In this document: positions 736-11,436 of the stretch, one piece after another
Layout of the letters: every line of letters begins with the position of its first letter
Position numbering within the stretch: the stretch's first letter is position 1
Assembly (NCBI RefSeq): GCF_988243305.1
Contig: NZ_OZ547136.1
DNA: 64,000 nt
Reading direction: 5' to 3' (one strand)
The notes under the pieces: generated by a model
What the model was told of the DNA's origin: nothing
Seen by the model: only the letters and a program-made list of their open reading frames with translations
Databases searched by the model: none
Program-made: the position numbers and the translations under genes

Positions 736-2334
736 ATGCGTAAAACAGTGGCTTTTGGCTTTGTCGGTACCGTGCTGGATTATGCCGGACGCGGCAGTCA
801 GCGCTGGTCAAAATGGCGTCCGACACTCTGTTTATGCCAGCAAGAATCGTTGGTCATCGATCGACTGGAATTATTGCATGACGCCCGCTCGCGCTCGCTA
901 TTTGAAACGCTTAAACGCGATATCGCCAGCGTTTCGCCAGAAACAGAAGTGGTGAGCGTTGAGATTGAACTGCATAACCCGTGGGATTTCGAAGAGGTTT
1001 ACGCCTGCCTGCATGATTTCGCCCGTGGTTACGCGTTCCAGCCAGAAAAAGAAGACTATTTAATTCACATCACCACCGGTACCCACGTCGCGCAGATTTG
1101 CTGGTTTCTGCTGGCAGAAGCGCGTTATCTACCCGCCCGGTTGATACAATCTTCACCACCGCGCAAAAAAGAACAACCGCGCGGCGCAGGTGAAGTGACG
1201 ATTATCGATCTCGATTTAAGCCGTTATAACGCCATCGCCAGCCGCTTTGCCGAGGAACGCCAGCAAACCCTCGATTTCCTCAAATCCGGCATTGCCACGC
1301 GTAACCCCCACTTCAACCGCATGATTGAGCAGATCGAAAAAGTGGCGATTAAATCCCGCGCACCGATCCTGCTTAACGGCCCAACCGGTGCGGGCAAGTC
1401 GTTTCTGGCACGACGCATCTTCGAATTAAAACAGGCGCGGCATCAGTTTAGCGGCGCGTTTGTGGAAGTGAACTGCGCCACCCTGCGCGGCGATACCGCC
1501 ATGTCGACGCTGTTTGGTCATGTGAAAGGCGCGTTCACCGGGGCGCGGGAGTCGCGGGAAGGATTATTACGCAGCGCCAACGGTGGAATGTTGTTTCTTG
1601 ATGAGATTGGCGAACTGGGCGCAGACGAACAGGCGATGTTGCTGAAAGCCATTGAAGAGAAAACCTTTTACCCGTTTGGCAGCGATCGCCAGGTGAGCAG
1701 TGATTTTCAGCTGATCGCCGGAACGGTGCGCGATTTGCGTCAGTTGGTTGCCGAAGGCAAATTTCGCGAAGACCTGTACGCACGCATTAATCTCTGGACC
1801 TTCACCCTGCCGGGGCTGCGCCAGCGCCAGGAAGATATCGAACCGAACCTGGATTATGAAGTGGAGCGCCACGCCGCGCTTACTGGCGACAGCGTGCGTT
1901 TTAACACCGAAGCACGGCGCGCCTGGCTGGCTTTTGCGACATCTCCCCAGGCAACATGGCGCGGTAACTTTCGAGAACTTTCTGCCAGCGTCACGCGGAT
2001 GGCAACCTTTGCCGATAGCGGGCGCATTACTCTGGAAACCGTAGAAGATGAGATAAACCGTCTGCGCTATAACTGGCAGGAGAGTCGCCCCTCCGCGCTT
2101 CCGGCGTTGCTGGGCGCTGAGGCAGAAAACATCGACCTCTTTGATCGACTGCAACTGGAACACGTAATAGCCATCTGCCGCCAGGCAAAGTCACTTTCTG
2201 CTGCCGGACGCCAGCTTTTTGACGTTTCGCGCCAGGGCAAAGCCAGCGTCAATGACGCGGATCGGCTACGCAAATACCTGGCGCGTTTTGGTCTGACGTG
2301 GGAAGCCGTGCAGGATCAGCACAGCTCCAGTTGA
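736..2334 (+). CDS. rtcR: sigma-54-dependent transcriptional activator RtcR
   Basis: 532-aa ORF with AAA+ motifs (GPTGAGKS, GAFTGA loop) and expected position next to rtcB. Confidence 0.9.
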   Translation: MRKTVAFGFVGTVLDYAGRGSQRWSKWRPTLCLCQQESLVIDRLELLHDARSRSLFETLKRDIASVSPETEVVSVEIELHNPWDFEEVYACLHDFARGYAFQPEKEDYLIHITTGTHVAQICWFLLAEARYLPARLIQSSPPRKKEQPRGAGEVTIIDLDLSRYNAIASRFAEERQQTLDFLKSGIATRNPHFNRMIEQIEKVAIKSRAPILLNGPTGAGKSFLARRIFELKQARHQFSGAFVEVNCATLRGDTAMSTLFGHVKGAFTGARESREGLLRSANGGMLFLDEIGELGADEQAMLLKAIEEKTFYPFGSDRQVSSDFQLIAGTVRDLRQLVAEGKFREDLYARINLWTFTLPGLRQRQEDIEPNLDYEVERHAALTGDSVRFNTEARRAWLAFATSPQATWRGNFRELSASVTRMATFADSGRITLETVEDEINRLRYNWQESRPSALPALLGAEAENIDLFDRLQLEHVIAICRQAKSLSAAGRQLFDVSRQGKASVNDADRLRKYLARFGLTWEAVQDQHSSS

Positions 2335-3074
2335 ATATGATGGTCCGTCAGCACCTGCATCACGCTTACTGGCGGCGGGGCGTCGGTGTAGACGGCATCT
2401 ACCATGCTGATACTGCCCATATTGACCATCGCGTTACGGCCAAATTTCGAGTGATCGACAACCAGCATAACGTGGCGCGAGTTCTCAATAATGGCGCGTT
2501 TGGTGCGAACTTCGTGGTAATCGAACTCCAGCAGCGAGCCGTCGCTATCGATGCCACTAATCCCCAGAATGCCGAAATCAAGGCGGAACTGGGAGATAAA
2601 ATCGAGCGTCGCTTCGCCTATGATCCCACCATCGCGGCTACGTAATTCGCCACCGGCGAGAATAATGCGAAAATCTTCTTTTACCATCAACGTGTTAGCG
2701 ACGTTGAGATTGTTGGTGACAATGCGCAAATTGCTGTGATTAAGCAGCGCGTGCGCCACCGCTTCCGGGGTGGTGCCGATATCGATAAACAGCGTCGAGC
2801 CGTTGGGGATTTGCTCCGCCACTTTGCGGGCGATGCGCTCTTTTTCTTCGGTCTGGGTGGCCTTGCGATCGTGCCACGGGGTGTTAACCGAACTGGAAGG
2901 CAGCGCCGCGCCGCCATGATGCCGCAGGATCAGGTTTTGCTCTGCCAGCTCATTGAGGTCACGACGAATAGTCTGCGGGCTGACGGAGAAGTGCTCCACC
3001 AGTTCCTCGGTACTGACATAACCTTGCTGTTTAACCAGTTCGATAATACCGTTGTGACGTTGTGTTTGTTTCAT
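2316..3074 (-). CDS. glpR: DeoR-family glycerol-3-phosphate regulon repressor GlpR
   Basis: 252-aa ORF with an N-terminal HTH; 3' end overlaps the 3' end of rtcR by 19 bp (convergent). Confidence 0.9.
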   Translation of the reverse strand: MKQTQRHNGIIELVKQQGYVSTEELVEHFSVSPQTIRRDLNELAEQNLILRHHGGAALPSSSVNTPWHDRKATQTEEKERIARKVAEQIPNGSTLFIDIGTTPEAVAHALLNHSNLRIVTNNLNVANTLMVKEDFRIILAGGELRSRDGGIIGEATLDFISQFRLDFGILGISGIDSDGSLLEFDYHEVRTKRAIIENSRHVMLVVDHSKFGRNAMVNMGSISMVDAVYTDAPPPVSVMQVLTDHHIQLELC

Positions 3075-3090
3075 TTATAAATCCCTGGAA

Positions 3091-3933
<843 letters not shown>

Positions 3934-8914: not shown

Positions 8915-9487
8915 TCACTGATAGTCTATATCAAAGTACAATAGTGCGTTCGCCTGTCCCGCATGTACGTTTTGCTGAGTTGACTTATAGCGGAGTTTAA
9001 AGGTTAAACTGGCATCGCCATTATTATTTAAAATTAACTCTTTGAATCCTGACTCACTATTAATTGCTATAATTTTATCATTACTGTCTAAAATTTCGAT
9101 GCCCACTCCAGTTGCACTATCCGCGCTGGAAGTAAGGCGTAATAAAGTGGTATTTATAGCATCAGCATCCCCGGTAAACTGCACATTAGCACTTACTCCT
9201 GAACTATAAACAGTACTGGTTGTTGTAGGACATCCTTCCAGATTGATCGTAAATGTATGGCTGCCAGAAACATCCCCTACATTCAAAAAATCATTGACGT
9301 CATAAGTTCCCATGTTTACTGGCTGGTCTTTACTTCCAGTTGTAATATCACACGTTTTTGCTAATAATTGTCCTGTAAATGTGACCACTACAGTATCGTT
9401 AGCCAGTGCGTTATATGAAATCACCATCATGAACAATGATCTAAACATTAATAGAATAAATTTTTGTAATATATTCATTAGCGGCAC
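8915..9487 (-). CDS. fimbrial minor subunit
   Basis: 190-aa ORF, signal peptide, C-terminal FDIDYQ pilin donor-strand-like end. Confidence 0.75.
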   Translation of the reverse strand: MPLMNILQKFILLMFRSLFMMVISYNALANDTVVVTFTGQLLAKTCDITTGSKDQPVNMGTYDVNDFLNVGDVSGSHTFTINLEGCPTTTSTVYSSGVSANVQFTGDADAINTTLLRLTSSADSATGVGIEILDSNDKIIAINSESGFKELILNNNGDASLTFKLRYKSTQQNVHAGQANALLYFDIDYQ

Positions 9488-11436
9488 TCCAGATTTGCAT
9501 AGCTAATGGCATTATCCAGTTCGCTTTTCGGTAATTGATAACTTGCCCGACATTGCTGATAAGCACTTTCTCCCCACTGTATATTTATTATGCCTTGTAA
9601 AGGCAAACCGGAGAGATAAACCTGCCCACTGTCACCCACTATTCCTGTAATCTGAGTTGTCCCCTCAGTGGGTACACTGACCGTCGCACCAAATGGAACT
9701 GGTTTATTACGATAGTGAACATTAAATAAACCTCGAATACCGACATGTGCATTAAACTCAGCACGAACTAAAGCACCTTTGCTGGGTATCACTTCCATAG
9801 TAGTAGCATCTAATTCTGTATGCATACTCATAGACATAGGGTCTAAAGAGATATTATTACGCCGATATTCCGTGGCATAAGGTACGACAGCATAGCCACG
9901 CCAGTCTGTTTTAACCCCCGTTCCGCGTTCCACATTTACATTGTTTGCCCCAGGTGCTTTTATCAGTATATTTGTTTCACCTAACGGCTGACTTAGCGTG
10001 AGACCATTTTCGTGAACAACCAGGGCCCCACTTAAACCATAGTTAAATTGCTGGTTACCATTATTATCGTAGCTGTATCCAGAATTTAGTGAACCATATG
10101 TACCACGGTAATTTAAACCTACCGCGCCATTTTCGCCATTATTCTGGTTAGCAAAATTTTGTTGAATATTATAGTTGAGATTATGTTGTTCCAGCAGCGA
10201 TCCAGATACTCCAGCATACTGATTCACATGACCGCTATTATCCTGACTATAACCATAAGTTGCTGTCATAGAATTTGTCGCAGTACGCCCATCGACAGCT
10301 GGTGATAACCAATTGCTGATCGGCAATGAGACATTTACGGATAAGATTCTGTCCGCATCTGAACCTGGTGACTTGCTATAATTATAAGCAATATTTAAAT
10401 AAATCCCATGTACACTCGTATTATAGCCGACCTGATACAAGGTATCTTTATTATTCGTATTCCAGTAAGTTTGTTGACTTGCCGCCAAATACATAGAGCC
10501 ATATTCGCCCAATGGTTGCGATATATTTGCCTGAAACTTTCCTCTTTTGCTATAACGTAAATTATAAAAATCATTCCAGTTATAAACATAGTCTTTTTCA
10601 TTAAGGGTATCTGGATCGATAACCGTACCCGACATTTGTTTGTATGTGGTATCACTCAACGAATAAAATCCCTCCGTCGAATAGCGATAACCAATAATCT
10701 GAAAAGCCGTACCTGTCTGCACTAACGATTTTGAATATAGGAAACGGTACGATTGCCCTTGATGTTTACTGCCATCGGCAAGCGTGCTATTGGCTTGCGT
10801 TAAATCAAATGACGTCGCACCAAACATACCAAGGTTGAACCCAAGCCCGAGTGCTATTGCCCGATAATTATTTGAGTATTGCATCCCTCCGTAGGCGGTA
10901 ATATCCCAGGGTAACCCCCAAATCAAATCTCCTTGAAAGACATTCGGACTGTTTTGATTATAGCTATTGCTACGATATTTACCGGCAGTTGCCGAATATT
11001 TAATATGCCCTTCGCGTTGAAGAATGGGAACAGCGGCGTAAGGAATAGTATAGATAGTTTCGGAATTATCAGACTCTTTGATCGTAACTTCCAAATCCCC
11101 AGCGGAAGACGTAGGGTTCAGATCGTTGATTTCAAAGGGTCCCGGTGGAGTATATGTCTGATAAATAACATAGCCATTTTGTTTGATCGTTACCTGAGCA
11201 TTGCTTTTAGCAATACCGCGCACAGTGGGGGCAAAACCACTTTGGCTATCGGGTAGCATGTTTTCATCGGATTCAAGTTTAGCACCACGAATACTCACAC
11301 TGTCGAAAACATCCGATGAAGACCAGGTACTGATGAATCCCCTAATGATTTTGGTAAAAATCATTAAGTTAAGGTAGATACACATCTTGTCATATGATCA
11401 AATGGTTTCGCCAAAAATCAATAATCAGACAACAAG

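What the first reader, a model, noticed from the sequence alone, without database searches (positions are those of the whole stretch)
2316..2334. Convergent 19-bp coding overlap of rtcR and glpR
The stop-proximal codons of rtcR (plus strand) and glpR (minus strand) overlap, so transcription of each gene must read into the other, with possible antisense interference.
Basis: seen in the sequence. Interest (0 to 1): 0.15.

Follow-up and report, generated by a model that had tools for sequence, protein, structure and literature searches.

The report
Ordinary tail-to-tail overlap of rtcR and glpR
The last 19 bases of two E. coli regulator genes on opposite strands do overlap, but this is a known, annotated, commonplace by-product of which stop codon glpR uses, and nothing found shows that it regulates anything.

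Summary
Observation confirmed. rtcR (736..2334, +, 532 aa) and glpR (2316..3074, -, 252 aa) share 2316..2334, 19 bp. RefSeq annotates the same overlap in MG1655 and in every E. coli genome sampled. The junction is present in 5420 of 5426 complete genomes.

The overlap is an ordinary stop-codon-shift overlap. GlpR's C-terminus (QLELC*) is invariant across genera. The overlap holds only RtcR's last five residues, which lie beyond the conserved end of the family.

Its length follows glpR's stop codon. With TAA or TAG (Salmonella-type, Superficieibacter, one metagenome) rtcR stops on an embedded TAA and the overlap is 4 bp. With TGA (Escherichia, K. oxytoca) rtcR reads CAG and runs five more codons, giving 19 bp. 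Frameshifted rtcR tails give 35-38 bp. Third codon positions coincide, and all three variable sites are synonymous in both genes.

No terminator lies at the junction. Published data put a Rho-dependent termination region on the glpR strand about 334 nt inside rtcR, and an RNase III-type duplex inside glpR, so transcripts overlap. GlpR protein level is unchanged in an RNase III mutant, and the pair is absent from a published E. coli excludon list.

Verdict: real, already known, low interest.

The parts
736..2334 (+). rtcR coding sequence (sigma-54 activator of rtcBA), 532 aa, stop TGA at 2332-2334
   Evidence: ORF list. Pfam RtcR, Sigma54_activat and AAA_lid_14. RefSeq annotation in strain 118UI and MG1655.
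2316..3074 (-). glpR coding sequence (DeoR-family repressor of the glp regulon), 252 aa, stop TGA = reverse complement of 2316-2318. It is the last gene of the glpE-glpG-glpR cluster.
   Evidence: ORF list. Pfam HTH_DeoR and DeoRC. RefSeq annotation. Intact here, pseudogene in MG1655.
2316..2334 (.). The 19-bp convergent coding overlap, phase (123:213): third codon positions of both genes coincide at 2319, 2322, 2325, 2328 and 2331
   Evidence: Only 2325, 2328 and 2331 vary among 15 Escherichia and Klebsiella sequences, and each change is synonymous in both genes.
2317..2331 (+). Codons Q528-H-S-S-S532 of RtcR: a non-conserved C-terminal tail read from the antisense of glpR's LELC-stop
   Evidence: RtcR homologues from other phyla align only to about residue 526 and end with unrelated 2-8 residue tails. 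The tail is absent in Salmonella-type, Superficieibacter and L041 loci.
1982..2315 (-). Untranslated 3' extension of glpR-strand transcripts, antisense to rtcR. It runs to the peak of a published Rho-dependent termination region (MG1655 3559514 = window 1982).
   Evidence: PMC7815308 supplementary file 2: reads upstream/downstream 154/29 without bicyclomycin and 153/256 with it, Rho score 8.89, p 2.7e-27. Coordinates mapped through L002.
2300..2327 (-). 10-bp stem-loop in the glpR-strand RNA with the glpR stop codon in its loop. It has no U-tract.
   Evidence: RNA fold of 2285-2375, minus strand: -29.5 kcal/mol, z -2.15, 6 of 200 shuffles fold as well. Not scored as a terminator.
2228..2285 (-). 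Stable hairpin in the glpR-strand RNA 31-88 nt past the glpR stop. Its arms are the S-R-Q and L-A-R codons of RtcR's DNA-binding region. Judged a coding by-product.
   Evidence: z -4.67, 0 of 200 shuffles. 9-bp perfect inverted repeat. The same complementarity occurs in a Pseudomonas rtcR with no glpR neighbour, and it is lost in K. oxytoca and Superficieibacter.
2760..2783 (.). Site of a published p19-captured 22-nt RNase III duplex, showing RNA from both strands inside glpR, 428-449 nt beyond the rtcR stop
   Evidence: PMC7373196 Table S3: 93 and 125 reads. The plus-strand arm maps to 2762-2783 with 1 mismatch.

Best explanation
This is an ordinary tail-to-tail gene overlap created by a stop-codon shift. 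It has no demonstrated function of its own.

In the enterobacterial ancestor, rtcR came to abut the fixed 3' end of glpR. The rtcR codon that straddles glpR's stop consists of the last two bases of the reverse-complemented glpR stop plus the first base of the reverse-complemented Cys codon. If glpR ends in TAA or TAG, that codon is TAA or TAG, so rtcR stops there and the overlap is 4 bp. If glpR ends in TGA, as in E. coli, the codon is CAG (Gln). RtcR then runs on through the antisense of ...Q-L-E-L-C, adding H-S-S-S before the next in-frame TGA, which gives 19 bp.

The five extra RtcR residues are passengers. The conservation of the 19 bp comes from GlpR's invariant C-terminus, helped by the phase in which both genes' wobble positions coincide.

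No terminator fits between the genes, so both transcripts run into the partner gene. The glpR-strand transcript is ended by Rho a few hundred nucleotides inside rtcR. The rtcR-strand transcript probably also ends by Rho inside glpR (inferred).

Shown: the anatomy, the stop-codon rule in 7 lineages, the synonymous-only variation, and (from published data) the Rho region and a duplex. Inferred: neutrality of the tail, the source of the plus-strand RNA inside glpR, and negligible regulatory cross-talk.
For: - Coordinates and gene identity.
- Stop-codon rule in 7 lineages. TGA gives 19 bp in E. coli and K. oxytoca. TGA gives 35 bp (Intestinirhabdus) and 38 bp (L039) where an indel upstream has shifted the rtcR tail frame. 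TAG gives CTAA, 4 bp, in Superficieibacter and L041. TAA gives TTAA, 4 bp, in the Salmonella-type L038.
- GlpR ends QLELC* in all of them, while RtcR tails differ: DQHSSS, KEMAN, LQN, KEITA, ISTAPAEYGDR, ISTIPVVYGGRR.
- Distant RtcRs align only to about residue 526.
- All three variable sites in the overlap are shared third positions and synonymous in both genes. The overlap varies less than its flanks (3/19 versus 40/92 sites, Fisher p 0.037, K. oxytoca included). rtcR codons just upstream are hypervariable.
- Phase (123:213) is the phase of 4-bp stop/stop overlaps, and the stop-codon-mutation model fits E. coli convergent overlaps (PMC2174442).
- The expected run after stop loss has a median of 16 codons against 4 here.
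- There is no terminator or known RNA family at the junction.
- Rho region on the glpR strand inside rtcR. Duplex inside glpR.
- GlpR protein is unchanged in an rnc mutant.
- The pair is not in the published excludome.
- ST131-type strains keep glpR and the 19-bp remnant after deleting rtcB and most of rtcR. MG1655 keeps rtcR with glpR a pseudogene.
Against: - Within Escherichia and K. oxytoca the RtcR tail DQHSSS is fully conserved. Nearly every glpR-synonymous change is also rtcR-synonymous, so selection on the tail cannot be separated from selection on GlpR. A function for the tail is therefore not excluded.
- Reduced variability of the overlap is not significant within Escherichia alone (3/19 versus 25/92, p 0.39).
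- p19-captured dsRNA assigned to glpR is not negligible (94.6 and 49.0 RPM), so sense-antisense pairing does occur in vivo.
- The proteomics covers one condition set, and RtcR itself was not quantified.
- No direct 3'-end data for rtcR transcripts were found.
Confidence: 0.85

Rival explanations
1. Functional convergent 'excludon'. Transcription of rtcR and of glpEGR interfere with each other, by polymerase collision or by RNase III cleavage of the duplexed 3' regions. That would link RNA-repair regulation and glycerol-3-phosphate regulon repression reciprocally.
For: - No terminator lies between the genes.
- glpR-strand RNA runs about 334 nt into rtcR and much further when Rho is inhibited.
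- An RNase III-type duplex and 49-95 RPM of dsRNA reads fall within glpR.
- The adjacency is conserved across several enterobacterial genera.
- Convergent excludons are reported to be common in E. coli (PMC12288877).
Against: - GlpR protein is 0.95-fold in an rnc mutant, adjusted p 0.16-0.32.
- The pair is absent from the 165-pair excludome, which does list yhhA-ugpQ, yhhL-yhhM and dcrB-yhhS from this window. glpR's pseudogene status in MG1655 may have excluded it.
- RtcR output is controlled post-translationally through its CARF domain (PMC9650030).
- Lineages lacking a functional partner are common.
- No duplex is listed at the junction or in the rtcR 3' part in the held tables.
Confidence: 0.07
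2. The overlap is selected for itself. Either the RtcR tail QHSSS contributes to RtcR function, or the overlap is kept for compaction or mutual protection of the two gene ends.
For: The 19 bp are nearly invariant from E. coli to K. oxytoca (1 difference), while the surrounding 111 bp are only 72% identical. The tail is identical in all Escherichia and K. oxytoca sequences sampled.
Against: - The same bases (CACAGCTCCAGTTG) are equally conserved in Superficieibacter and the Salmonella-type locus, where rtcR does not read them. GlpR alone therefore explains the conservation.
- RtcR works in Salmonella, per the literature listed, and the Salmonella-type tail found here ends ...LQN*.
- Tails are unrelated in other genera and phyla.
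- No solved structure covers the tail.
Confidence: 0.05
3. Annotation or sequencing artefact: one of the two genes really ends earlier and there is no true overlap.
For: None found.
Against: The same ORF ends are seen in the window, MG1655, 118UI, six other strains, four other Escherichia species and K. oxytoca. The junction is present in 5420 of 5426 complete genomes. Stop codons are unambiguous ORF ends, unlike start codons.
Confidence: 0.01

Closest known systems
Convergent (tail-to-tail) overlapping gene pairs of prokaryotes arising by stop-codon mutation (Lillo & Krakauer 2007, PMC2174442: 58 such pairs in E. coli)
   Same: Two bona fide genes on opposite strands share their 3' ends. The overlap is short. 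The phase is the same as that of the abundant 4-bp stop/stop overlaps. Orthologous loci show the 4-bp state, and the extension adds non-conserved residues.
   Different: Nothing of substance. The only specific point is that the 4-bp or 19-bp state can be read directly from glpR's stop codon (TAA/TAG versus TGA).
yhhA-ugpQ overlap in the same window (38855..39295 + / 39282..40025 -)
   Same: Convergent coding overlap of similar size (14 bp), also annotated in RefSeq.
   Different: That pair is listed in the published E. coli convergent excludome and rtcR-glpR is not.
Convergent excludons with regulatory antisense 3' UTRs, e.g. mscL-arfA in E. coli (PMC10070815; PMC12288877)
   Same: Tail-to-tail genes whose transcripts overlap, with dsRNA detectable.
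   Different: No evidence of reciprocal expression or RNase III-dependent control here. GlpR protein is unchanged in an rnc mutant.
Overlapping bidirectional terminators between convergent genes (Ju et al. 2019, as described in bioRxiv 10.1101/2022.10.23.513370; e.g. ynaJ-uspE)
   Same: Convergent genes with no room for separate terminators.
   Different: Those sites are described as Rho-independent and hairpin-based, with uniform 3' ends. Here no terminator-like hairpin lies at the junction, and the glpR-strand end is Rho-dependent, about 334 nt away.

Membership tests
Convergent overlapping gene pair by stop-codon shift | Both partners are real protein-coding genes on opposite strands | tested here: met
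   Pfam domains over the full length of both proteins. RefSeq annotation. Orthologues across genera.
Convergent overlapping gene pair by stop-codon shift | The 3' ends (stop-proximal codons) share nucleotides | tested here: met
   2316..2334, 19 bp.
Convergent overlapping gene pair by stop-codon shift | Related loci show the unextended state, and the difference is explained by gain or loss of a stop codon | tested here: met
   4-bp CTAA or TTAA overlaps where glpR ends in TAG or TAA. Overlaps of 19, 35 or 38 bp where it ends in TGA.
Convergent overlapping gene pair by stop-codon shift | The extension encodes residues not conserved in the protein family | tested here: met
   RtcR homologues align to about residue 526, and the tails beyond are unrelated.
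Excludon (functional convergent transcriptional overlap) | Transcripts from both strands overlap in vivo | tested here: inconclusive
   glpR-strand read-through into rtcR is supported (PMC7815308). Plus-strand RNA inside glpR is shown by a duplex, but its origin from rtcR is only inferred. No promoter-like site was found in 1800-2900.
Excludon (functional convergent transcriptional overlap) | Expression of one gene lowers the other, or there is an RNase III-dependent effect | tested here: inconclusive
   The only datum is published proteomics: GlpR 0.95-fold in an rnc mutant. RtcR was not quantified. No promoter-perturbation data were found.
Excludon (functional convergent transcriptional overlap) | Listed in the published E. 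coli MG1655 excludome (165 convergent pairs) | tested here: not met
   rtcR and glpR have 0 occurrences in PMC12288877, while yhhA-ugpQ, yhhL-yhhM and dcrB-yhhS are listed. glpR's pseudogene status in MG1655 may have excluded it.
Overlapping bidirectional intrinsic terminator | A G+C-rich hairpin with flanking T/A tracts at the junction, acting on both strands | tested here: not met
   No terminator-like site lies within about 170 nt of the junction. The junction folds are unremarkable on the plus strand (z 0.33) and modest on the minus strand (z -2.15), with no U-tract.
Overlapping bidirectional intrinsic terminator | Termination independent of Rho | tested here: not met
   A published bicyclomycin-sensitive termination region lies on the glpR strand (Rho score 8.89).
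RtcR family (sigma-54 enhancer-binding protein with CARF-type N-domain) | RtcR N-terminal domain plus sigma-54 interaction AAA+ domain, divergent from rtcBA | tested here: met
   PF06956 at residues 2-185 and PF00158 at residues 187-354. rtcB and rtcA lie divergently upstream.
DeoR/GlpR repressor family | N-terminal DeoR HTH plus C-terminal DeoRC sensor domain | tested here: met
   PF08220 at residues 6-61 and PF00455 at residues 74-231. It sits in the glpE-glpG-glpR cluster next to glpD.

The most novel reading that the evidence does not exclude
The rtcR-glpR tail-to-tail arrangement, conserved across several enterobacterial genera, is a working excludon. Under this reading, Rho-limited glpEGR read-through antisense to the last ~350 nt of rtcR, together with rtcR read-through into glpR, tunes the levels of the RNA-repair activator and the glycerol-3-phosphate repressor against each other. 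The Escherichia-specific hairpin at 2228-2285 would act as the protective 3' end of the glpEGR mRNA.
Probability: 0.04. Interest if true: 0.35.

Novelty: already known. Interest (0 to 1): 0.07.

Why it matters
It matters little. The overlap is visible in the reference annotation of E. coli K-12 and belongs to a well-described class: dozens of convergent overlaps per E. coli genome, and two in this window alone.

The one small added point is that a single stop-codon choice in glpR (TGA versus TAA/TAG) decides whether the neighbouring RtcR protein carries five extra residues and whether the overlap is 19 or 4 bp. That makes a tidy worked example of the stop-codon-mutation origin of convergent overlaps.

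The locus is also a reminder that coding overlap and transcript overlap are different things. The transcripts overlap by hundreds of nucleotides whatever the length of the coding overlap.

Tried and rejected
- **Terminator at the junction.** Scanned 1800-2900 and found none near it. There are only weak terminator-like sites at 2149->2131 (-), 2687-2707 (+) and 2828-2840 (+), no more than shuffles give (3 found against 1.5 +/- 1.1).
- **Known RNA family.** Rfam with permissive E-value over 1700-3200 gave no match.
- **Hairpin 2228-2285 as a selected 3'-end element.** On the glpR-strand RNA it scores z -4.67. I rejected it as a selected element. Its arms are the S-R-Q and L-A-R codons of RtcR's conserved DNA-binding region. 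The same complementarity appears in a Pseudomonas rtcR with no glpR neighbour (z -3.4). It is lost in K. oxytoca (z 0.19), Intestinirhabdus (z -0.13) and Superficieibacter (z 1.36), which do have the glpR neighbour. No mapped 3' end near it appears in the held Term-seq tables.
- **C-rich, G-poor (rut-like) composition downstream of each stop.** It is unremarkable on the glpR strand. There is a modest C>G stretch at +281..+358 past the rtcR stop (C/G 1.79). This is suggestive only.
- **Solved structures.** None covers the RtcR tail, and no close GlpR structure exists.
- **Protein database search with the RtcR C-terminal 99 aa.** It returned only short fragments. These were still useful for finding the Salmonella-type and other junctions.
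- **Papers or supplements not held.** Ju et al. 2019 SEnd-seq, Dar & Sorek 2018 tables, Conway 2014 tables, Zeng 1996, Thomason 2015 and ExcludonFinder supplements.
- **Papers naming both genes**. None discusses the overlap.
Full report
**1. The observation**

The window is Escherichia coli chromosome. Region 1900-2750 is 100% identical to strain 118UI and matches 5425 of 5426 complete E. coli genomes.

The ORF list gives rtcR at 736..2334 (+, 532 aa, stop TGA at 2332-2334) and glpR at 2316..3074 (-, 252 aa). The glpR stop is TGA, the reverse complement of TCA at 2316-2318.

Both are genuine genes:
- RtcR has PF06956 (RtcR), Sigma54_activat and AAA_lid_14.
- GlpR has HTH_DeoR and DeoRC.

RefSeq annotates the same overlap in several places:
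- Strain 118UI.
- MG1655, with rtcR at 3558268..3559866 and glpR at 3559848..3560605. There glpR is a pseudogene.
- Six other strains chosen across the identity range.

The 60-bp junction occurs in 5420 of 5426 complete genomes.

**2. Is it unusual?**

No. Three baselines say so.
- In the syntenic 64 kb of strain 118UI there are 9 convergent gene pairs. Two overlap (rtcR/glpR by 19 bp, yhhA/ugpQ by 14 bp). Two more are 2-3 bp apart (yhhL/yhhM, dcrB/yhhS). The yhhA/ugpQ overlap is also present in the window, at 39282..39295.
- Lillo & Krakauer counted 58 convergent overlaps in E. coli and found their phases consistent with a stop-codon-mutation origin (PMC2174442).
- As a local null, I read 58 neighbouring genes antisense from their stop codons in the phase seen here. 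The median open run before the next stop was 16 codons, against 4 here, and 17% of genes gave 4 or fewer. A 19-bp overlap is thus on the short side of what a lost stop would give.

**3. Anatomy and origin**

The overlap covers the last base of D527, codons Q528-H-S-S-S532 and the stop of rtcR. On the other strand it covers the stop and the codons C-L-E-L-Q of glpR.

Third codon positions of the two genes coincide at 2319, 2322, 2325, 2328 and 2331. This is phase (123:213) in the notation of PMC2174442, the same phase as the common 4-bp stop/stop overlaps.

I fetched related loci with one scan of species-representative genomes and three look-ups of contigs encoding RtcR fragments. rtcR lies next to glpR only in Enterobacteriaceae. 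The Pseudomonas, Iodobacter, Verrucomicrobia and Desulfobulbus loci have no glpR neighbour.

In every enterobacterial locus GlpR ends ...QLELC*. The RtcR tail varies:

| Locus | glpR stop | Junction | RtcR tail | Overlap |
|---|---|---|---|---|
| Superficieibacter (L025) | TAG | CTAA | ...KEMAN* | 4 bp |
| Metagenome (L041) | TAG | CTAA | ...KEITA* | 4 bp |
| Salmonella-type, with the Ro60 gene (L038) | TAA | TTAA | ...LQN* | 4 bp |
| Five Escherichia species, K. oxytoca | TGA | rtcR reads CAG-CAC-AGC-TCC-AGT/C-TGA | ...DQHSSS* | 19 bp |
| Intestinirhabdus (L007) | TGA | 7-nt deletion upstream shifts the rtcR frame | ...ISTAPAEYGDR* | 35 bp |
| L039 | TGA | similarly frame-shifted rtcR tail | ...ISTIPVVYGGRR* | 38 bp |

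The rule behind the table is mechanical. The rtcR codon that straddles the glpR stop is made of the last two bases of the reverse-complemented stop plus G or A from the Cys codon. TAA or TAG in glpR forces TAA or TAG in rtcR. TGA in glpR gives CAG or CAA (Gln), and rtcR reads on. One substitution that is silent for glpR (stop to stop) therefore adds or removes five residues of RtcR.

RtcR homologues from other phyla align only to about residue 526. They end in unrelated tails of 2-8 residues, so the overlapped residues lie outside the conserved protein.

**4. Constraint**

I compared 15 Escherichia and K. oxytoca sequences.
- The 19 bp have three variable sites (2325, 2328, 2331). All are shared wobble positions and all changes are synonymous in both genes.
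- The rtcR codons immediately upstream (2296-2311) carry many amino-acid changes.
- The overlap is less variable than its 46-bp flanks: 3/19 against 40/92 sites, Fisher p 0.037. Within Escherichia alone the difference is not significant (3/19 against 25/92, p 0.39).
- The same bases are equally conserved where rtcR does not read them (L025, L038, L041). GlpR's C-terminus is therefore sufficient to explain the conservation.
- Almost every glpR-synonymous change is also rtcR-synonymous. Selection on the RtcR tail itself cannot be tested from sequence.

**5. Transcription**

No terminator-like or promoter-like site lies at the junction. No Rfam family matches 1700-3200. Transcripts must therefore extend into the partner gene, and published data bear on this.

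*The glpR strand.* Adams et al. 2021 (PMC7815308, supplementary file 2) list a Rho termination region whose best coordinate is 3559514 (-), classed 'antisense rtcR'. Read counts in the 800-nt windows upstream/downstream were 154/29 without bicyclomycin and 153/256 with it. The Rho score is 8.89 and p is 2.7e-27. That coordinate is 334 nt past the glpR stop, window 1982. glpR-strand transcription thus runs a few hundred nucleotides antisense into rtcR and is stopped by Rho. No further entry for 3559500-3560099 is in the held tables.

*The rtcR strand.* Huang et al. 2020 (PMC7373196) list a perfectly paired 22-nt RNase III product inside glpR (Table S3; 93 and 125 reads). Its plus-strand arm maps to window 2762-2783, 428-449 nt past the rtcR stop. 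They also report 94.6 and 49.0 RPM of p19-captured dsRNA for glpR (Table S2). RNA of rtcR polarity therefore exists inside glpR. That it is rtcR read-through is my inference from the lack of any promoter-like site.

*Evidence against a regulatory effect.*
- In the same Table S2, GlpR protein in an RNase III mutant is 0.95-fold of wild type, with adjusted p 0.16-0.32. I did not identify which sheet the row belongs to.
- The ExcludonFinder 'excludome' of E. coli MG1655 (165 convergent pairs) lists yhhA-ugpQ, yhhL-yhhM and dcrB-yhhS from this window but not rtcR-glpR (PMC12288877). glpR's pseudogene status in MG1655 may be the reason.
- RtcR activity is governed post-translationally by its CARF domain (PMC9650030).
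- Natural variants uncouple the pair. ST131-type strains have a deletion fusing a 3' remnant of rtcA to a 3' remnant of rtcR, yet keep glpR and the 19-bp remnant. One E. coli keeps only the last 36 codons of rtcR (L031). MG1655 has a frameshifted glpR.

**6. Structures I looked at and set aside**

On the glpR-strand RNA a 10-bp stem-loop holds the glpR stop codon in its loop (2327->2300; z -2.15).

A much stronger hairpin lies 31-88 nt downstream (2285->2228; z -4.67, 0 of 200 shuffles). It could serve as a protective 3' structure after Rho termination and exonuclease trimming. I judge it a coding by-product rather than a selected element, for three reasons:
- Its arms are the S-R-Q and L-A-R codons of RtcR's conserved C-terminal region.
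- The same pairing occurs in a Pseudomonas rtcR with no glpR neighbour.
- It is lost in K. oxytoca, weakened in Intestinirhabdus and absent in Superficieibacter, all of which do have the glpR neighbour.

**7. Verdict**

It is already annotated in the reference genome and belongs to a common, well-explained class.

That property comes from the absence of an intergenic terminator, not from the 19 bp, and relatives with a 4-bp overlap share it. Functional antisense interference is not supported by the little evidence available.

Novelty: already known. Interest: about 0.07.

The most novel reading left open is a working excludon linking the RNA-repair activator and the glycerol repressor. I put it at about 4%.

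Noticed in passing
window 39282..39295 (yhhA 38855..39295 +, ugpQ 39282..40025 -): A second convergent coding overlap, 14 bp, in the same window. It is annotated likewise in strain 118UI, and the pair is listed in the published E. coli convergent excludome (PMC12288877). Two further convergent pairs of the syntenic region (yhhL/yhhM, dcrB/yhhS) are only 2-3 bp apart.
   Followed up: partly
window ~11330..13970: Relative to strain 118UI the window carries a ~2.65-kb insertion that truncates the fimbrial usher gene (ORF 9478..11385, against 9478..12069 in 118UI). It holds a DDE_Tnp_1 transposase ORF (11437..12654, +) and an IS3-type pair: HTH_Tnp_1 (13423..13749, -) and rve integrase (12536..13426, -). 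These are two insertion sequences side by side.
   Followed up: partly
window 2228..2285, minus strand: Unusually stable hairpin in the glpR-strand RNA just past the glpR stop (z -4.67), formed by the S-R-Q and L-A-R codons of RtcR. It is conserved in Escherichia, recurs in one Pseudomonas rtcR, and is lost in Klebsiella and Superficieibacter. It is probably a coding by-product, but it could still stabilise the glpEGR mRNA 3' end in E. coli.
   Followed up: yes
L034 2098..2884 and L036 1753..2539 (E. coli strain 3385 and O25:H4 strain CU568-3): One lineage carries a deletion that fuses a 3' remnant of rtcA to a 3' remnant of rtcR, removing rtcB and the rtcR promoter. glpR and the 19-bp remnant overlap are intact. 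L031 (E. coli SCPM-O-B-8794) keeps only the last 36 codons of rtcR. NCTC11023 (H12) matches only 2610-2750, next to a glycogen/starch/alpha-glucan phosphorylase gene, which suggests a larger deletion.
   Followed up: partly
window 2296..2311 (RtcR residues ~521-526): A cluster of amino-acid polymorphism just upstream of the overlap (T/S/A, A/T/S/D/V, V/M/L, Q/K among Escherichia and Klebsiella). It contrasts with the invariant overlap and the conserved DNA-binding region before it. The 851-bp region is only 90-95% identical to the window in 2252 of 5425 genomes, so rtcR alleles are fairly divergent within E. coli.
   Followed up: no
L002 4849..5606 (MG1655 3559848..3560605): glpR is annotated as a pseudogene in the MG1655 reference (758 bp, split tblastn match), whereas it is intact (252 aa) in the window. 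Data sets built on the MG1655 annotation may therefore omit the rtcR-glpR pair.
   Followed up: partly
L038 1259..2824: The Salmonella-type locus has a Ro60/TROVE-vWA gene (rsr) between rtcB and rtcR. Its rtcR is called only as a 161-aa C-terminal fragment in that assembly.
   Followed up: no
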